From contig WSZJ01000004.1 in assembly GCA_009773755.1 (NCBI GenBank), forward strand, positions 44,475 to 108,474: a stretch of 64,000 nt of DNA, given 5' to 3'. The notes below the pieces were generated by a model. The model worked only from the letters and a program-made list of their open reading frames with translations. It was not told the origin of the DNA and did no database searches. This document shows, in pieces, positions 12,453 to 63,282 of the stretch. The DNA is from Planctomycetota bacterium (GTDB taxonomy: Bacteria; Planctomycetota; MHYJ01; WSZJ01). The position numbers and the translations under genes are program-made. The first letter of the stretch is position 1. The number at the start of each line of letters is the position of its first letter.

Positions 12453-12496
12453 CGGTGAAAGTCCGGGCTGAATCCGCGGCTGCCAGTGTCCTGGCC

Positions 12497-12530
12497 CTAC
12501 CTACCCACTACCTCCTACCAACTACCTACT
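12497..12530. repeat. CTACC-type pyrimidine-rich short tandem repeat in a convergent intergenic gap
   Basis: CTACCTACCCACTACCTCCTACCAACTACCTACT lies between stop 12452 (+) and stop 12526 (-). No complementary arm is present nearby. Confidence 0.6.
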
Positions 12531-14127
12531 TCTTCCGGTAAACCACTTTCCCATCAATCGCGGTCATCACAACCGTCACATCCGCCATCCTCCGCACAGG
12601 GATCTCAATCGGGTCCTCGTTGAACACCATCAGGTCCGCCAGGCAGCCCGGGACCAGCCTCCCGGCGCGATCTTCGATCCCGGACGCCCACGCCGAACCG
12701 CGCGTGTACGCAAGGAACGCGTCCCAGGGCGAAATGCACTCGGCCTCGTTCCACGGCGTCCAGTCCTCTTTCGGCCGCAGCACCGCTCCCTTCAGCACGC
12801 GCCGCGGATCAGGCGGCTCGACCGGCACGTCCGTCCCGAACGCCACCACCGCGCCGCTGGCCATCAGCGACCGGACCGGATAGGCGCGCTTCGATCTCTC
12901 GCCCCCCCAGAGTTTCTCCGCGCTGTCGATGTCGCTCATGATCTGGCAGGGCTGCATCGAAGCGATGACGCCGAGCTGCTTGAAGCGCGGGATGTCCGCC
13001 GCGTCGACGATCTGCGCGTGCTCGATGCGCTGCCTTAGTCCGAACGCGTCGGCCGCGGGCTTCGCCGCCGCGAACGCGTCGAGCGCGTTGCGGACCGCCT
13101 TGTCGCCGATCGCGTGAATCGCGCTCGCGATCCCGTTCTCGGCCGCTTTCTTCACGATCGCCGCCATCTCCGCCGCCGGAATAACCTCGACGCCGCAATC
13201 CTTCGTCCCTTCAAACGGCGCCAGCATCGCCGCCGTCCGCGACCCGAGCGATCCGTCGGCGTACAGTTTAATGCCGCCGAAGCGCAGCCAGTCGCTCCCG
13301 AAGCCGCTTCGGAACCCGCACGCGACAAGCCGGTCGAGGTCGTGCGCCGGAAAATAGATCGTGAGCCGCACGCCGAGTTCCCCCGCGTGCTCCATGTTCT
13401 GGAAGAGCCGGAAGCCCTCTTCCAGCTCGGCGTCGCGTGACATGGCGCCCGCGAAGATGTCCGCGCTGGCGACGCCAAGCGAGTGGAACTGCATCACGGC
13501 GTCGCGAAGCCCGCCGCGCACGGCCTGGGCCGGCGGCGAGCTGATGAACGGTTTAACGAGCTCGAGCGCTTTCTCGCGAAGAATTCCCGTCGGCTCCCCC
13601 GCCGCGTCGCGCTCGATCAGGCCGCCCGCCGGATTCGGAGTAGCCTTCGTAATCCCGGCCGCCGCGAGCGCCTTCGAATTCACCCACCACGCGTGCCCGT
13701 CCTTCGACGACAGCGCAACGGGATTGTTTGGCGCCGCTTCATCGAGCGAAGCGCGCGTCGGCCACTCGTTCACGCCCCAGCGCGAAAGCGCCCAACCGCG
13801 CCCGACGATCCAGTCGCCGGCCGCCGCGCGATCGGCAGTCCCCTTCACTCCCTGGCACGCCGAATGTTCGCTGTGCGAGTCGTCGAGCCGCAGCCGCCGC
13901 AGCGTCAGCGCGTAGTGATAGAAATGAGTGTGCGCGTCGTGGAACGCCGGAAACACCGAGCGCCCTTCGAGGTCGTGCACCTCGTCGCCGCCCCGGTAAG
14001 CCGACCGCACGGTGAAATCGTCGCCGACGAAAGAGATCTTCCCGTTTTCCGCGATGAGCGCCGTCTGTTCGGGCACATTCGCGTCGAAGGTCCGGATGCG
14101 TGCGTTGACGAGCAGGAGGCGGGCCAT
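12526..14127 (-). CDS. Amidohydrolase family (Amidohydro_3 / YtcJ-like) metal-dependent hydrolase
   Basis: MARLLLVNARIRT.. with the HDAHTHF metal-binding motif near the N-terminus. Also ..GIKLYADGSLGSRTAA.. and ..VAFGTDVPVEP. 533 aa with normal composition. Confidence 0.85.
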   Translation of the reverse strand: MARLLLVNARIRTFDANVPEQTALIAENGKISFVGDDFTVRSAYRGGDEVHDLEGRSVFPAFHDAHTHFYHYALTLRRLRLDDSHSEHSACQGVKGTADRAAAGDWIVGRGWALSRWGVNEWPTRASLDEAAPNNPVALSSKDGHAWWVNSKALAAAGITKATPNPAGGLIERDAAGEPTGILREKALELVKPFISSPPAQAVRGGLRDAVMQFHSLGVASADIFAGAMSRDAELEEGFRLFQNMEHAGELGVRLTIYFPAHDLDRLVACGFRSGFGSDWLRFGGIKLYADGSLGSRTAAMLAPFEGTKDCGVEVIPAAEMAAIVKKAAENGIASAIHAIGDKAVRNALDAFAAAKPAADAFGLRQRIEHAQIVDAADIPRFKQLGVIASMQPCQIMSDIDSAEKLWGGERSKRAYPVRSLMASGAVVAFGTDVPVEPPDPRRVLKGAVLRPKEDWTPWNEAECISPWDAFLAYTRGSAWASGIEDRAGRLVPGCLADLMVFNEDPIEIPVRRMADVTVVMTAIDGKVVYRKK

Positions 14128-14174
14128 GCGCCGATTGTAGGGAGAAGTCTTGGGGGGGCAAAAGAATGCAGCCG

Positions 14175-14527
14175 TGCGGAGGCTGCGGAGGCTGCGGAGG
14201 CTGGCGGAGGCTGCGGAGGCTGCGGAGGCTGGCGAAGGCCGCGGAGGCTGGCGGAAGCTGCGGAGGCTGCGAAGGCTGAGTGGGATCCATGGCTGTACCG
14301 CATGGGAACCACAAACAGCCTATTCCCGATTCCTCGAGGGTGCGACACTACCCAAGCCCCGCAGTTAGCCTTCGCCAGCCTCCGCCCGCCTCCGCCAGCC
14401 TCCGCAGCCTCCGCAGCCTCCGCAGCTTCCGCCAGCCTCCTCCAGCCTCCGCAGCTTCCGCCAGCTTCCGCAGCCTCCGCCAGCTTCCGCAGCCTCCGCC
14501 AGCTTCCGCAGCCTCCGCCAGCCTCCC
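14175..14527. repeat. Large palindrome whose arms are 9-10-bp tandem repeats (GCGGAGGCT / AGCCTCCGC) around an ~90-bp unique core
   Basis: The left arm (14175-14276) has 11 units of TGCGGAGGC/TGGCGGAGGC variants. The right arm (~14368-14527) has about 17 units of the reverse complement GCCTCCGC(C)A. The unique centre is 14277-14367. The element fills the divergent region between the amidohydrolase start (14127) and the rlmN start (14529). Confidence 0.9.
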
Positions 14528-14528
14528 A

Positions 14529-15605
14529 ATGCCTTCCCTCTTCGACCAGCCCGTCCCGACCCTCCTCGCGCGGCTCGCCGCGGCCGCCGCTCCGCAGAAT
14601 GCCCAGCGCTCGCTGCGCGCCGCCTACGCTCTCGAAGAATCGCCCTGGATCGGGAAGAAATTGCGCGAAGCCGCCGCCGGACTTGAGACCGGATTGCCTC
14701 CTGTCTCGAAGCGCGTCGACGCTTCCGACGGAACTTCCAAGTTGCTGCTGTCGCTCGAGGACGGCCGCGCGGTGGAGTGCGTGCTGATCCCGGGGGTTCG
14801 CGGCGAGTTTTCGCGGAAGCGGATGAGCGCGCGCAACCGGGAAGGCGGGGCGCCGCGGAAGCGCCGGCCGGTGGCGGCGGCTTGCGTGTCGAGCCAGGTC
14901 GGGTGCGCCGCGGGGTGCTCGTTCTGCGCGAGCGGGCTCGGGGGGCTCACTCGAAACCTGACCGCGGGCGAAATCGTCGCGCAGGCGCTGCTGCTCAAGA
15001 AGGAAGCTGCGGCGCGCGGGTTGCGGCTTGCCACGGTCGTCTTCATGGGAATGGGCGAGCCGCTTCATAATGTCGAAAACGTGATCGTCGCCATCCGCAA
15101 TCTGACGCACCGCCACGCGGGCGCGATCCCGCCGTCCGGCGTCACGGTTTCGACGGTCGGGATTGTCTCGGGGATGGAAGCGCTGGCGGCGTCGCACGAG
15201 CCGCCGCACCTTGCGGTGTCGCTCCATGCTCCGGACGACACGACGCGAGCCGCCATTGTCCGCACGGCGCCGCGTCTCTGGACGGTCGGGGAAACGCTCG
15301 ACGCCGCGGAAAAGTACCGGGATGCGACGAAGCGACACGTCACGATCAGCTACGTGCTGCTCGACGGGGTCAACGACGCACCGGAGCAGGCCGGGCGGCT
15401 CGGGGAACTTCTGCGCGGGCGCAAGTTCCACGTCAACCTGATCCCGCACAACACCGTCGACGGCCTCCCGTTCCGCGCGGCGACCAGGGAGCGCGCAGCG
15501 CGATTCTGGGAGATCCTGCGCGAGCGCGGCGCCGTCGTGCACATCCGGAAACAGCGCGGGGCGGAGGAAGACGCGGCGTGCGGGCAGCTCAGGCGAAGGA
15601 ACTGA
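14529..15605 (+). CDS. rlmN: 23S rRNA/tRNA adenine-C2 methyltransferase, radical SAM (RlmN family)
   Basis: ORF 14280..15605 trimmed to the ATG at 14529; the upstream part only translates the repeat. Radical SAM cluster motif SSQVGCAAGCSFCASG, then ..VVFMGMGEPL.., ..TVSTVGI.. and ..LAVSLHAP... C-terminal catalytic Cys in EDAACGQL. Contains a basic ~25-aa insertion before the cluster motif. Confidence 0.88.
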   Translation: MPSLFDQPVPTLLARLAAAAAPQNAQRSLRAAYALEESPWIGKKLREAAAGLETGLPPVSKRVDASDGTSKLLLSLEDGRAVECVLIPGVRGEFSRKRMSARNREGGAPRKRRPVAAACVSSQVGCAAGCSFCASGLGGLTRNLTAGEIVAQALLLKKEAAARGLRLATVVFMGMGEPLHNVENVIVAIRNLTHRHAGAIPPSGVTVSTVGIVSGMEALAASHEPPHLAVSLHAPDDTTRAAIVRTAPRLWTVGETLDAAEKYRDATKRHVTISYVLLDGVNDAPEQAGRLGELLRGRKFHVNLIPHNTVDGLPFRAATRERAARFWEILRERGAVVHIRKQRGAEEDAACGQLRRRN

Positions 15606-26636: not shown

Positions 26637-26726
26637 GACAAATCCCAAATCCCAACTCCAACTCCAAATTCCAACCGACGTCTGCAGAATTGGGATTTGG
26701 AGTTGGAGTTGGCGTTGGGATTTGTC
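26637..26726. repeat. Intergenic hairpin with ~38-bp arms made of AAATCCC/AACTCC tandem units
   Basis: The left arm GACAAATCCCAAATCCCAACTCCAACTCCAAATTCCAA (26637-26674) is nearly the reverse complement of AATTGGGATTTGGAGTTGGAGTTGGCGTTGGGATTTGTC (26688-26726). The loop is CCGACGTCTGCAG. Lies between the DUF1800 stop and the DUF1501 start. Confidence 0.85.
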
Positions 26727-30008: not shown

Positions 30009-31458
30009 CGTGAATTCTCCCTTCGAATCGCTCAGGGCGGACCAGGCTTACCTCTTCAGACACGCCCTTCTCAGGGACGCCGCGTATCAGCTCCAGCTCC
30101 CCGGCGACCGCGCGCGGCTGCACGCGCTGACATTCGCGGCGATCGAGGCGATCTGTGGTGGGCGGGCGCCCGGGCCGCTGCCCGGCGACTACGACGAGCG
30201 TTCCTTCCAGCCACACCCGACGGATCCGTTTTCGCTCGAACTCGCGGACCACGCGACGGCCGTCGAGTCGCTTCCCGCCTTGCGCGGGGGAAGCGCGAGC
30301 CTCGATGACGCCAGGGGTGCGCGCCGGCTCTACCTGGGCCGCGCGGCGGAAATCGCGGAGAGGAGCTTCCAGAACGACGTCGCGGTGAAATTGTGGGGGG
30401 TTCACGCGGAGACGGTGGAGGGACTTGAGAAAGGCGAATCCCTGCGCCGAGCCGCGATTGTCGCGTTCCGTTCAGGACGGCTGACGACCGCCGAGCCCCT
30501 CTTCGAGCAGGCGCTCGACCTGTTCCGGGAGGGCGGAGACCGGCGTCTCGAAGGCGCGGTCCTCGGCAGCCTGGCAAGCGTGTACAAGGCTTCGGGTCGC
30601 ATGGCGATTGCGGAACGCAGCTATGGACAGGCGCTGGCGCTTCACCGCGAAACCGGAAACCGGAAAGCGGAGGGAGTCGAGATGGAGAATCTGGCGAGCC
30701 TGTGGCACGAAACCGGGAGGATCGAACAGGCCGAGGCATACCACCGGCAGGCGATTCTCATCAGCCGCGAAGCCGGCGACCGTCGCGGAGAGGGAATCGC
30801 CGTGGGCAACCTCGCGATCCTCCTCGACGAAACCGGGAGGTTTCAGGAAGCCGAGCGGTGCTTCGAAAGCGCGCTCGAGATTCACCGGAAGGTCGGCAAT
30901 CGGCGCATGCAGGGGATAAACCTCTGCAATCAGGCCTCGGTTTTCCGCAGGGCCAGACAGTTCGAAGTGGCCAGGCGGAAGTTCGAAGAGGCGCTCGCAA
31001 TCGACCGCGAAGTCGGCAATCGCCAGTCACAGGGGATCGCGCTCGGCAACCTTGCAATCCTGTGCAAGGAGCAGGCTCGATTCGAGGAATCGGAACGTCT
31101 TTACGGCCAGGCGCTCGAGATCCACCGGGAGATCGGCAGCCGTCGCTACGAAGGAATCACGCTGGGCAGCCTGGCGAATCTCCACCTTGGGCTCAGCCGG
31201 CACGGTCTGGCCCGTCCGCTTTTCGAGCAGGCCATTCAGATCGATCGACAGGTCGGCAACAGACGCTTCGAGGGCCTGCACCTCTGCGACCTCGCTCTCC
31301 TTCACCTCGACCTCCAGGAAATCGTTGAAGCGCGGGCGCTGTGGACCGAGGGAACGACCATTCTGCGCGTGCTCGGCGACGTCGGGCAGCTCGAGCTTAA
31401 TTCGGCGGTCATCCGCAAGGCCTGCGAGCTCGCCGGCGTGCCTTGCTTTGAAACATGA
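30009..31458 (+). CDS. TPR-repeat protein resembling the C-terminal part of a STAND NTPase (no NTPase domain); start uncertain
   Basis: ORF 29605..31458; its 5' part overlaps the pectate lyase gene out of frame. The first plausible start after 29896 is GTG 30009. It begins ..AYLFRHALLRDAAYQLQLPGDRARLHALTFAAIE, a motif that normally follows the ATPase/wHTH of AAA_16-type STAND proteins. About eight ~40-aa TPR_12-like repeats follow (..GNRRxEGxxLxNLA..). Confidence 0.65.
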
Positions 31459-38484: not shown

Positions 38485-38517
38485 CTCGCAACTCGCAACT
38501 CGCAACCCGCAAATCGC
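38485..38517. repeat. CTCGCAA heptamer tandem repeat immediately downstream of eno
   Basis: CTCGCAACTCGCAACTCGCAACCCGCAAATCGC, adjacent to the eno stop (38519-38521). No complementary arm is seen. Confidence 0.6.
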
Positions 38518-62575: not shown

Positions 62576-63282
62576 CGCTCTCGCTCCCGGGCGCCGCCGT
62601 CGGGCAACATCTTCTGAAGCGGGCACCCATCGCATTTCGGTTTCGCCTTGCAGAATTCCTTCGCGGTCTTCACGAGGAGCGCGTGGGCTTCGTTGTACAG
62701 CGCCGCGTCGCGCGGAAGCGAGTCCATCCACCAGCTGCGCACGTCGTCGTAACCGGACTCCCAGTCGAGCCAGCCGTGGCGCGCGAGAATCCGGTGGGTG
62801 TACGCGTCGGCGACGAATGTCGCCTTCCCCGCCGCATACAGCGCGATCGCATCGGCGGTTTCGGGACCGATGCCGGAGATCTCGAGAAGCGCCTCGCGAA
62901 GCGATTCGGGACCTCGATCGAAGAGTCTCTCGAGCGACCCGCCATGCTCCTCGACAAGCCACTTGCAAAAGCGCATCAACCGCTTCGCCTTGACGCGAAA
63001 AGTCCCCGCCGGCCGAATGACTTCCTCCAATCCAGCGGTGCCCAGACGGACTACGAATTCGGCGTCGAGTCCTTTCCCTCCCGACCCCCGGCTCCCGACT
63101 CCCGACTCGCCGGCCGAAAGCCGTTTGAGATTTGATATCGCCAGTTCGACATTCTTCCAATTCGTGTTCTGCGCCAGGATCGCGCCGACGCACACTTCAA
63201 ACGGCGTCTCGGCAGGCCACCATTTCTGGGGACCGAACGCCGAGAGGAGCGTCTCGACGACTTTCGTGGCGGTCGAGATCAC
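62569..63282 (-). CDS. Endonuclease III-related HhH-GPD domain protein with low-complexity insertion
   Basis: GTG 63282 shares GTGA with the upstream stop. ..WWPAETPFEVCVGAILAQNTNWKNV.., ..EISGIGPETADAIALYA.. (HhH-GPD) and ..FCKAKPKCDGCPL.. (Cys cluster). The insertion SAGESGVGSRGSGGKG is encoded by the CTCCCGACT repeat. Confidence 0.8.
   Translation of the reverse strand: MISTATKVVETLLSAFGPQKWWPAETPFEVCVGAILAQNTNWKNVELAISNLKRLSAGESGVGSRGSGGKGLDAEFVVRLGTAGLEEVIRPAGTFRVKAKRLMRFCKWLVEEHGGSLERLFDRGPESLREALLEISGIGPETADAIALYAAGKATFVADAYTHRILARHGWLDWESGYDDVRSWWMDSLPRDAALYNEAHALLVKTAKEFCKAKPKCDGCPLQKMLPDGGARERERW

What the first reader, a model, noticed from the sequence alone, without database searches (positions are those of the whole stretch)
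14175..14527. ~350-bp palindrome of 9-10-mer GCGGAGGCT repeats occupying the divergent amidohydrolase/rlmN control region
Seen: the left arm has 11 tandem units (TGCGGAGGC / TGGCGGAGGC and variants, 14175-14276). A ~90-bp unique core follows (14277-14367). Then come about 17 units of the exact reverse-complement type (GCCTCCGCA / GCCTCCGCCA / GCTTCCGCA). This right arm ends 1 nt before the rlmN ATG at 14529. Each unit contains GGAGG on one strand and CCTCC on the other.
Inference: if the promoters lie in the unique core, both divergent 5' leaders would carry the CCUCC strand, which is identical to the anti-Shine-Dalgarno core of 16S rRNA. If transcription starts outside, the RNA could fold into a >100-bp hairpin.
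The unit length of 9-10 bp is about one helical turn. The element is not a CRISPR array because there are no spacers. The unequal arms (11 versus ~17 units) suggest active expansion and contraction. I do not recognise this element type.
Basis: partly seen in the sequence, partly recalled or inferred. Interest (0 to 1): 0.6.

Follow-up and report, generated by a model that had tools for sequence, protein, structure and literature searches.

The report
Gene-less tandem-repeat hairpin element
The 350-bp palindrome is real, but it is not a dedicated switch for its two neighbour genes: it is the longest of about 30-40 copies of a hairpin-shaped repeat scattered through this planctomycete genome. 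Those copies are gene-less relatives of a small cassette that carries a four-helix-bundle protein gene between the same repeat arms.

Summary
The element has 11 G-rich units of (G)GCGGAGGCT at 14176-14277, a unique 89-nt core, and 16 full units plus one partial unit of the reverse complement at 14367-14527. The right arm ends 1 nt before the rlmN-family ATG. Both strands fold far better than shuffled controls (z -13 and -15).

The element is not locus-specific. The genome holds 82 such arrays, always ordered G-arm, core, C-arm, and 15 contig ends break inside them. The family occurs in 5 of 8 genomes of the genus and nowhere else that I sampled.

In sister genomes the same arms bracket an intact PF05635 gene (four-helix-bundle, 23S-rRNA-IVS/Avd family). 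A third such "master" carries this genome's own 9-mer unit variant and lies on sub-kb metagenome contigs. Six of this genome's seven PF05635 genes likewise carry arms whose unit recurs at 16-72 other loci.

Orthologous sites are filled in some species and empty in others, with no target duplication and no Y1 transposase. The anti-Shine-Dalgarno idea is not supported. Sister families lack GGAGG, and a conserved leaderless-type promoter for the amidohydrolase lies outside the element. How copies spread, and whether the protein recognises its own unit, remains inferred.

The parts
12526..14127 (-). Amidohydrolase gene (533 aa). This single gene is inverted relative to the ancestral gene order.
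   Evidence: PF07969 Amidohydro_3, E 8.5e-109. It is co-directional with rlmN in G002, G005, G006 and G007, and inverted in G000, G001 and G003.
14134..14161 (-). Promoter-like site for the amidohydrolase, lying outside the palindrome: TTGCCC, 16 nt, TACAAT, then 6 nt to the ATG.
   Evidence: Consensus scan found 1 site against 0.0 expected. The roughly 47 nt next to the ATG are conserved in G000, G001 and G003. A TA[CGA]A[AC]T box lies 6-8 nt before the ATG in all 8 genomes (read).
14176..14277 (+). Left, G-rich arm: 11 tandem units of (G)GCGGAGGCT, eight 9-mers and three 10-mers.
14278..14366 (.). Unique 89-nt core (the loop). Its right end keeps the family's inner-boundary motif GTTAGC.
   Evidence: There is no other copy in G000 or in any of the 8 genomes of the genus. 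It shows no similarity to the master-cassette interiors.
14367..14527 (+). Right, C-rich arm: 16 complete units plus 1 partial unit of AGCCTCCGC(C) or AGCTTCCGC(C), with a 19-nt higher-order period.
14529..15605 (+). RlmN-family radical-SAM rRNA/tRNA methyltransferase gene. Its start codon is 1 nt after the right arm.
   Evidence: TIGR00048 RlmN scores 275.8 bits (cut-off 290) and PF04055 also matches. The N-terminus MPSLFDQP aligns with the orthologues in 7 sister genomes.

Best explanation
The palindrome is one gene-less copy, the longest in this genome, of a dispersed foldback repeat family restricted to one genus. Every copy is ordered G-rich array of (G)GCGGAGGCT units, then a short core, then the C-rich reverse-complement array.

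**Shown**
- The family is the satellite population of a small cassette that carries an intact PF05635 gene with its own promoter-like site between arms of the same unit. PF05635 is the four-helix-bundle, 23S-rRNA-IVS-protein/Avd family.
- Cassette and satellites share lineage-specific unit variants.
- Copies are present or absent at orthologous sites.
- Whole elements, and whole gene-plus-arm cassettes, occur at unrelated loci.
- This copy sits in a spacer that was remodelled after a lineage-specific inversion of the amidohydrolase gene.

**Inferred**
- The element is selfish or near-neutral DNA that spreads and is homogenised at the DNA level. Candidate routes are hairpin or cruciform formation, template switching, slippage and ectopic conversion. 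The PF05635 protein may help, since it is the only gene product the cassette encodes.
- It is not a dedicated regulator of its neighbours. As a side effect it now forms the whole region upstream of rlmN.
- Any transcript that crosses it would form a double-stranded stem of about 100 bp. That is the kind of substrate RNase III removes from IVS-bearing 23S rRNA.
For: **Dispersal**
- G000 has 433 exact units and 82 arrays of at least 3 units.
- About 21-25 complete pairs are all ordered G-arm, core, C-arm.
- 15 contig ends lie inside arrays.
- The family is in 5 of 8 genomes of the genus and in 0 of 33 genomes of other genera.

**Cassette**
- In G001:C49, arms of 13 and 19 GGCGGAGGCT units bracket a 119-aa PF05635/TIGR02436 gene with a TTGACT-17-TATGGT site.
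- The same layout occurs in G004 and in P0003 and P0004.
- The G001 and G004 proteins are sisters (support 100/99), yet their flanks are not homologous.

**General rule in this genome**
- Each arm unit of six of G000's seven PF05635 genes recurs at 16-72 other loci. Shuffled controls give 0 for three of these units; for the hexamer units some shuffles also recur, up to 32 loci.
- At least 210 inverted tandem-array pairs fall into about 10 families.

**Variant concordance between master and satellites**
- The ratio of A-variant to G-variant units is 127:24 in G004, whose master has A-variant arms. It is 45:89 in G001, whose master has G-variant arms.
- The 9-mer tandem is found 41 times in G000, never in G001, G002 or G004, and once in G003. 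The P0004 master carries it.

**Master presence tracks abundance**
- Perfect 15-mer units number 134 and 151 in G001 and G004, which have the master. They number 32 and 32 in G002 and G003, which lack it.

**Filled and empty sites**
- The C18 copy is absent in G002, G003 and G006.
- The C4 copy is absent in G001 and G003, but that site is filled in G002 and G004.
- The focal site is empty or holds a different element in all 7 sister genomes.

**Whole-element copying**
- One 47-nt core is shared by three loci at 93-96% identity.

**Outside support**
- The closest solved structure, 2gsc, is Xanthomonas campestris XCC0516 (E 5.7e-26).
- The supplement of PMC4692102 lists a GGGAATC repeat overlapping the start of that gene.
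Against: - No master gene with these arms is in the G000 assembly. The best G000 hit is 56% identical and has other arms. P0004 cannot be assigned to this organism.
- No enzyme for movement is known. There is no Y1 transposase, and two filled/empty comparisons show no target-site duplication.
- Most cores, including this one, show no similarity to the master interiors. Descent by internal deletion is suggested only for C281, C194 and C299b.
- The link between master presence and unit abundance rests on only five genomes, all incomplete MAGs.
- Earlier checks in this scan report that only a minority of PF05635 genes overall have such arms.
- Nothing here shows that the protein binds the unit.
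Confidence: 0.72

Rival explanations
1. This is a dedicated regulatory region of the divergent amidohydrolase/rlmN pair. The promoters lie in the core, and both leaders carry CCUCC repeats that act through anti-Shine-Dalgarno mimicry.
For: By symmetry, both outward-reading strands would carry CCUCC. The right arm abuts the rlmN ATG. After the gene inversion rlmN lost its upstream operon partner and needs a new promoter.
Against: - The arms recur at dozens of unrelated loci.
- About 10 sister families with the same architecture lack GGAGG.
- The conserved promoter-like site for the amidohydrolase lies outside the element.
- No sigma-70-like site was found in the core.
- The element is absent at this site in G001 and G003, which share the divergent arrangement.
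Confidence: 0.05
2. This is an RNA-level functional element kept by selection: a bidirectional terminator, an RNase III processing site or a transcript-stabilising hairpin. The repeats are only the building material.
For: The hairpins are extremely stable. Many copies start within 15 nt of a stop codon. RNase III excises the related IVS hairpin in Coxiella (PMC4990558). Most Xanthomonas repeats of this type are transcribed (PMC4692102).
Against: - There is no sense-strand bias in folding energy among 85 co-directional sites: 39 favour sense and 45 antisense, p = 0.77. G-U wobble therefore gives no sign of RNA-level selection.
- No U-tract follows the stem.
- The mix of contexts looks like ordinary gene-pair proportions: 85 co-directional, 22 convergent and 18 divergent.
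- Copies come and go between close species.
Confidence: 0.13
3. The hairpins arise locally by slippage plus fold-back copying at each site, with no movement. Similar units at different loci would then reflect ectopic gene conversion or convergence.
For: - The arms have independent higher-order periods.
- Syntenic cassettes in three species carry diverged units: GGTCGAA, GGTTGGA and ..ACCACCA.
- Orthologous sites carry the unit variant typical of their own genome.
Against: - The same 9/10-nt unit occurs at more than 40 loci.
- Identical cores occur at three unrelated loci.
- Homologous gene-plus-arm cassettes have non-homologous flanks.
- Clean empty sites exist in sister species.
Confidence: 0.07
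4. This is a classical MITE or REP element moved in trans by a transposase, either an IS family enzyme or a RAYT.
For: The copies are dispersed, intergenic, palindromic, non-coding and variable in number. The REP/RAYT system shows the same logic of a master gene plus satellites.
Against: No Y1 transposase is found in the genome. No target-site duplication is seen. The arms are tandem arrays of variable length rather than fixed terminal inverted repeats. The only gene ever found between such arms is PF05635.
Confidence: 0.03

Closest known systems
ORF-bearing intervening sequences (IVS) of 23S rRNA, for example Coxiella burnetii and Leptospira, encoding S23p (PF05635)
   Same: In both, a long inverted-repeat stem encloses a PF05635 gene. 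The IVS is regarded as a selfish, horizontally acquired element, and RNase III excises its stem (PMC4990558). The master cassettes of this family in G001, G004, P0003 and P0004 have that layout.
   Different: This copy has no ORF. It lies between protein-coding genes, not inside rRNA. Its arms are arrays of 11 and 17 units of 9-10 nt, not a short stem. It belongs to a multi-copy family. No processing was tested here.
Dispersed G-rich heptamer repeats: GGGAATC in Xanthomonas, GGGGA(C/T)T in Nostoc, cyanobacterial STRR, and the paired tandem 7-9-mers of Geobacter metallireducens
   Same: These are short tandem units, enriched between genes, variable in copy number and often arranged as convergent pairs on opposite strands. 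Xanthomonas campestris has 70 such pairs (PMC4692102). In Geobacter the paired sites were listed as putative regulator sites (PMC2700814). One Xanthomonas repeat abuts the PF05635 gene XCC0516.
   Different: The unit here is 9-10 nt with only GG runs, so it has no GGG tracts for the G-quadruplex proposed in those papers. The arms are far longer, 102 and 161 nt. The link to a cognate PF05635 cassette is not made in those papers.
REP/REPIN sequences and their RAYT transposases
   Same: The population structure matches: a single-copy gene flanked by its own repeat type, plus many gene-less palindromic copies of that type in intergenic regions, with several such gene and repeat pairs in one genome.
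   Different: No Y1 (RAYT) gene is present. The flanked gene is a 120-aa four-helix bundle with no known catalytic activity. The repeats are tandem arrays rather than 20-40-nt palindromes.
Avd, the accessory protein of diversity-generating retroelements (same Pfam family)
   Same: It is a four-helix-bundle protein of the PF05635 family. From my own knowledge, bAvd binds nucleic acid and a reverse transcriptase.
   Different: No reverse transcriptase, template repeat or variable repeat lies next to these cassettes in the loci I read.

Membership tests
PF05635-cassette / IVS-type tandem-repeat hairpin elements | Two arms of short tandem units in inverted orientation around a loop | tested here: met
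   There are 11 and about 17 units, and the best arm pair is 87% complementary over 76 nt.
PF05635-cassette / IVS-type tandem-repeat hairpin elements | A PF05635 (S23p/four-helix-bundle) ORF in the loop | tested here: not met
   The 89-nt core holds no ORF and has no similarity to master interiors. The feature is met by sister copies with the same arms in G001, G004, P0003 and P0004.
PF05635-cassette / IVS-type tandem-repeat hairpin elements | Same unit sequence as a gene-bearing cassette in the same lineage | tested here: met
   The P0004 master carries the 9-mer tandem that is otherwise found in G000 (41 hits), never in G001, G002 or G004, and once in G003.
PF05635-cassette / IVS-type tandem-repeat hairpin elements | Excision of the stem from transcripts by RNase III | not testable with these tools
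   Only the fold is available.
23S rRNA intervening sequence in the strict sense | Insertion in helix 25 or 45 of 23S rRNA | tested here: not met
   The element lies between an amidohydrolase gene and an rlmN-family gene.
REP/REPIN-RAYT | A cognate Y1 (RAYT) transposase gene in the genome | tested here: not met
   PF01797 gives 0 hits in G000, while the control genomes do give hits.
MITE | Target-site duplication and fixed terminal inverted repeats derived from an insertion sequence | tested here: not met
   No duplication is seen in the filled/empty comparisons at the C18 and C4 sites. The arms vary from 3 to 18 units.
CRISPR array | Direct repeats of 24-48 nt separated by unique spacers | tested here: not met
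   The units are contiguous 9-10-mers with no spacers, and the two arrays are inverted.
Intrinsic terminator | A GC-rich stem followed by a U-tract | tested here: not met
   No T-run follows the large stem. The only terminator-like hit is a 6-bp stem at the left edge, at chance level: 1 found against 0.6 expected.
Any Rfam RNA family | Score at or above the gathering threshold | tested here: not met
   Only plant miRNA-precursor models match, far below threshold (62.7 bits against 168). These are generic long-hairpin matches.

The most novel reading that the evidence does not exclude
PF05635 four-helix-bundle proteins and tandem-repeat hairpins form cognate master-and-satellite systems, as RAYT and REPIN do but with a non-transposase protein. 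Under this reading, each protein lineage recognises its own 6-14-nt unit. It drives the spread, the homogenisation, or both, of gene-less hairpins carrying that unit across the genome.

This would explain three things:
- The one-to-one match between genes and repeat families in this genome.
- The lineage-specific unit variants shared by master and satellites, even at orthologous sites.
- The shorter, degenerate arrays in genomes that lack the master.

It would also give a function to a large orphan protein family and to the STRR, GGGAATC and Geobacter-type repeats.
Probability: 0.3. Interest if true: 0.85.

Novelty: new variant of a known kind. Interest (0 to 1): 0.6.

Why it matters
Short tandem repeats arranged as convergent pairs have been listed for decades as unexplained features of bacterial genomes. 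Examples are the cyanobacterial STRR, the Xanthomonas GGGAATC repeats and the Geobacter "regulator sites". PF05635 proteins are an abundant family with no known role outside diversity-generating retroelements.

This locus, read with its genome and seven sister genomes, links the two in a way that can be tested:
- Each PF05635 gene carries arms of one dispersed hairpin family.
- Master and satellites share lineage-specific unit variants.
- Arrays are long and uniform where the master is present.

In practice these elements break MAG assemblies. Fifteen contig ends in this genome lie inside this one family. They also remodel upstream regions of housekeeping genes, and annotation pipelines ignore them.

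Tried and rejected
1. **Rfam.** Only sub-threshold miRNA-hairpin models matched.
2. **Reads.** Mis-assembly and start sites are therefore untested.
3. **RNA-level selection, tested through G-U asymmetry.** I folded both strands of 199 gene-less hairpins. Among 85 co-directional sites, sense versus antisense gave 39 versus 45 (p = 0.77), so there is no signal.
4. **Context bias.** The proportions of co-directional, convergent and divergent neighbours look ordinary.
5. **Cores as deletion remnants of the master.** Twenty-four cores were compared with four master interiors.
   - Only C281 (19 of 23 positions, with one 4-nt gap, to the DFNHFLGIA-coding region) and C194/C299b (11-12 nt at the concordant 3' end) are suggestive.
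   - The 13-mer shared by the C18 core family looks like chance.
   - The focal core gives nothing.
6. **Focal core elsewhere.** It was not found in G000 or in the genus.
7. **Promoter in the core.** No sigma-70-like match was found.
8. **Y1/RAYT transposase.** None is present.
9. **Target-site duplication.** None is seen.
10. **tblastx synteny test.** It gave spurious full coverage in this high-GC DNA, so I replaced it with blastn.
11. **Literature.** Searches on PF05635, TIGR02436, GxxExxY and STRR found no paper that links the gene family to dispersed repeat families.
12. **G-quadruplex reading.** I set it aside because the unit has only GG runs.
13. **Helical phasing.** The 9-10-bp period matching one helical turn is not general, because sister families have 6-8-nt units.

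Full report
**1. The observation**

- Tandem Repeats Finder reports an array at 14175-14278: period 9, 11.2 copies, also fitted as period 28.
- It reports a second array at 14367-14526: period 19, 8.4 copies.
- Unit parsing gives 11 units on the left, eight 9-mers GCGGAGGCT and three 10-mers GGCGGAGGCT or variants.
- On the right there are 16 complete units plus one partial unit of the reverse complement.
- An 89-nt core lies between the arms.
- The right arm ends 1 nt before the ATG at 14529.
- The arms pair: 76 nt at 87% complementarity, with a 37-nt stretch at 100%.
- A two-unit 17-mer matches 15 times in the window, against 0.07 expected.
- As RNA, both strands fold into one long hairpin. 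MFE is -257 kcal/mol (z -13.2) on the + strand and -282 (z -15.0) on the - strand.
- Rfam gives only sub-threshold matches to miRNA-precursor models, which are generic long hairpins.

The flanking genes are an Amidohydro_3 amidohydrolase on the - strand (start codon at 14127) and an RlmN-family radical-SAM methyltransferase on the + strand.

**2. It is a dispersed family, not a local oddity**

The window is part of a 5.78-Mb MAG with 302 contigs and 65.7% GC. The NCBI titles of sister genomes label them Planctomycetia.

- The genome holds 433 exact GCGGAGGCT units and 82 arrays of at least 3 units.
- About 21-25 complete elements have the same order: G-rich arm, then a core of 33-100 nt, then the C-rich arm. 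This order does not change on reverse-complementing, so it is a real property of the element.
- Fifteen contig ends stop inside such arrays.
- The focal copy is the longest of all tandem-repeat hairpins in the genome.
- A two-unit probe hits 5 of the 8 genomes of the genus and none of 33 genomes from other genera of the order and class.
- The focal core is unique in the genome and in the genus. Other cores are shared between unrelated loci. One 47-nt core occurs at C18:33989, C299:22938 and C132:6117 with 93-96% identity. Whole elements therefore get copied.
- Many copies share an inner boundary, GCTAACGAC...GTCGTTAGC. The focal copy keeps only the right half, GTTAGC.

**3. The same arms bracket a gene in sister genomes**

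In G001:C49, 13 GGCGGAGGCT units and 19 complementary units enclose 487 nt. That interior holds a TTGACT-17-TATGGT site and an intact 119-aa gene. The gene matches PF05635 at E 5.9e-36 and TIGR02436 "four helix bundle protein".

- G004 has a 76%-identical gene between AGGCTGGCGA arms.
- The two proteins are sisters in a tree of 34 genus proteins (support 100/99). Their flanks are not homologous. Gene and arms therefore relocated together.
- Two more relatives come from public assemblies.
  - P0003 is 75% identical and syntenic with G001:C49. It has 17 units upstream but only 2 downstream.
  - P0004 is 68% identical. It lies on three ENA contigs of only 506-664 nt, and each contig ends inside arms on both sides.
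- The P0004 arms mix 9-mers and 10-mers. The 9-mer tandem GCTGCGGAGGCTGCGGAGGCTG occurs 41 times in G000, never in G001, G002 or G004, and once in G003.
- G000 has no contig shorter than 2566 nt. A master interior of about 0.5 kb between arms that cannot be assembled would have been lost from the bin. The absence of a master in G000 is therefore inconclusive.

**4. This is the rule in the genome**

- TRF pairing finds at least 210 inverted tandem-array pairs in G000. They fall into about ten multi-copy families: AAACGAA, CCTTTC/GGGAAA, CCAACT/TTGGAG, GGGTAGG/CCTACCC, GGGATG, CACRGAG, GAGTTGC and others.
- G000 has seven PF05635 genes. Six are flanked by arms whose unit recurs as arrays at 16-72 other loci. 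Shuffled units give 0 for three of these units; some shuffles of the three hexamer units recur (one at 32 loci against 40 for GGGAAA).
- Across the genus, 26 of 34 PF05635 genes have a tandem array on both sides, and sister proteins carry related units.
- Several sister pairs have non-homologous flanks. Three syntenic cassettes carry diverged units. Both relocation and in-place unit turnover therefore occur.
- All 49 PF05635 hits in the sister genomes are open frames.
- Among the 60 closest full-length loci from other phyla, 26 have inverted tandem arms, each with its own unit.

**5. Presence, absence and variants**

Six G000 copies were compared with the seven sister genomes.

- The C18 copy (266 nt) is absent in G002, G003 and G006, where the spacers are 23-96 nt.
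- The C4 copy is absent in G001 and G003 (18 and 13 nt). The same site is filled in G002 and G004 by the A-variant (GCGAAGGCT).
- The C58 and C96 sites are filled in several species. Each carries the variant that dominates its own genome.
- No target-site duplication is visible.

Genome-wide counts of A-variant to G-variant units are:

| Genome | A-variant : G-variant |
|---|---|
| G000 | 40 : 123 |
| G001 | 45 : 89 |
| G002 | 25 : 7 |
| G003 | 12 : 20 |
| G004 | 127 : 24 |
| G005-G007 | 0 : 0 |

The master arms follow the dominant variant of their genome. Genomes with a master have 134 and 151 perfect units. G002 and G003 lack a master, have 32 each, and their copies are visibly degenerate. 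This fits either bursts from a lineage-specific master or homogenisation across loci. It rests on only five incomplete genomes.

**6. The focal locus**

- The ancestral order is abhydrolase, amidohydrolase, rlmN, all co-directional. The amidohydrolase-rlmN spacer is 11 nt in G007 and 30 nt in G005.
- In G000, G001 and G003 the amidohydrolase gene alone is inverted.
- The new divergent spacer differs in each of the three:
  - 401 nt with this palindrome in G000.
  - 118 nt with five GGCGAGT units in G001.
  - 298 nt with a non-tandem inverted repeat in G003.
- G002 and G006 carry other repeat families in the co-directional spacer. The palindrome at this site is therefore specific to the G000 lineage.
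- The roughly 47 nt next to the amidohydrolase ATG are conserved in the three inverted genomes. They hold TTGCCC-16-TACAAT, ending 6 nt before the ATG.
- A TA[CGA]A[AC]T box lies 6-8 nt before the ATG in all eight genomes, which I read from the sequences. This points to a leaderless mRNA that starts outside the element.
- The rlmN start is conserved. No genome has a GGAGG-type Shine-Dalgarno sequence before it. No promoter-like site was found in the core. How rlmN is transcribed in G000 remains open.

**7. Mechanism**

No Y1 transposase is present. The only gene ever found inside such arms is PF05635.

Folding energies of sense and antisense strands do not differ at 85 co-directional sites: 39 versus 45, p = 0.77. 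Context proportions look ordinary. Arm complementarity therefore shows no sign of being kept by selection on one RNA strand. This fits generation and maintenance at the DNA level through slippage, fold-back or template switching, and conversion between arms and between copies.

Descent of gene-less copies from masters by internal deletion is suggested for a few cores only. The clearest is C281, which matches the DFNHFLGIA-coding segment at 19 of 23 positions.

I commit to this reading: a selfish or near-neutral foldback satellite of a PF05635 cassette. Its effect on rlmN is a by-product. The step "the protein recognises its own unit" is inferred, not shown.

**8. Comparison with what is known**

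- The closest described objects are the ORF-bearing 23S rRNA intervening sequences. The Coxiella IVS encloses an S23p (PF05635) ORF, and RNase III excises it (PMC4990558).
- Next are the unexplained convergent pairs of tandem heptamers in Xanthomonas (PMC4692102) and of tandem 7-9-mers in Geobacter (PMC2700814).
- The closest solved structure to the master protein is 2gsc, Xanthomonas campestris XCC0516 (E 5.7e-26). The Xanthomonas paper's own supplementary table lists GGGAATC repeat #15 as overlapping the start of XCC0516. The paper calls the gene only "conserved" and draws no link.
- The population structure resembles REP/RAYT, but the defining transposase is absent.
- My literature searches found no paper linking PF05635 genes to dispersed repeat families.
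- Earlier notes of this scan reached similar readings in other genomes. I treated them as leads and re-tested the claims here.

**9. Verdict**

The element is a new variant of a known but unexplained kind. It has 9/10-nt units and very long arms, and it is gene-less. Its value lies in making the link between PF05635 genes and repeat families testable.

Limits:
- All genomes used are MAGs.
- P0004 cannot be assigned to this organism.

Noticed in passing
window 12526-14174, compared with L050-L056: The amidohydrolase gene, together with its 47-nt promoter region, is inverted as a single-gene block in G000, G001 and G003. In G002, G005, G006 and G007 it is co-directional with rlmN. In G000, tandem-repeat arrays abut both junctions of the inverted block.
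   Followed up: partly
window 12496-12530: A lone C-rich heptamer array (CCTACYA, about 5 units) directly abuts the amidohydrolase stop codon. It is conserved at the same place in G003. No G-rich partner is visible. The unit belongs to the GGTAGGG/CCTACCC family, whose PF05635 gene lies on contig C47.
   Followed up: partly
window 26639-26718: A second tandem-repeat hairpin in the window: CAAATTCCAACTC x2.8, then 17 nt, then GGAGTT x4.3. It belongs to the CCAACT/TTGGAG family, which has about 37 gene-less copies. That family's PF05635 gene lies on contig C142.
   Followed up: partly
window 38485-38517, 63078-63108 and 30644-30671: Lone short heptamer arrays: CTCGCAA x4.7, CTCCCGA x4.4 and ACCGGAA x3.9. 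The first two use units of dispersed hairpin families in this genome. I did not search for their partner arms.
   Followed up: no
window 14128-14140 and the orthologous positions in L050-L056: A -10-like hexamer TA[CGA]A[AC]T lies 6-8 nt upstream of the amidohydrolase ATG in all eight genomes of the genus. This suggests a conserved leaderless mRNA.
   Followed up: partly
L042, L043 and L046, about 10-25 nt upstream of the rlmN ATG: A conserved CCGTGCTAAYCT motif precedes rlmN in G002, G004 and G005. In G004 it continues as CTAACCTCCGC, which matches 9 of 12 positions of the family's inner boundary plus first unit (TTAGCCTCCGCC). This may be chance, or a microhomology used at insertion.
   Followed up: no
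G000 contig C255:1127-1324 (orthologous to the G001:C49 master site): At the site where G001 carries the gene-bearing GGCGGAGGCT cassette, G000 holds a different AT-rich hairpin (GTGAAATGA / CATTTCATA units). Intergenic slots appear to be re-occupied by different families in different species.
   Followed up: partly
L074 (G004:C193:2500-3700): The site orthologous to the G000 C58 copy holds 501 nt in G004. There are two successive G-rich arrays (GGCGAAGGCT, then GTGCGAAGGC) before one very long C-rich arm. This looks like a nested or duplicated element.
   Followed up: no
PMC4692102, supplementary file 2, and PDB 2gsc: The Xanthomonas campestris gene XCC0516 is the closest solved structure to the master protein. 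The published GGGAATC repeat table lists a 4-unit repeat overlapping its start codon. The gene-repeat link is therefore visible in published data, but the authors did not note it.
   Followed up: partly
L164 (P0003 locus): This master cassette has a very lopsided pair of arms, 17 units upstream and only 2 downstream. A full hairpin is therefore not needed for the gene to stay intact.
   Followed up: no
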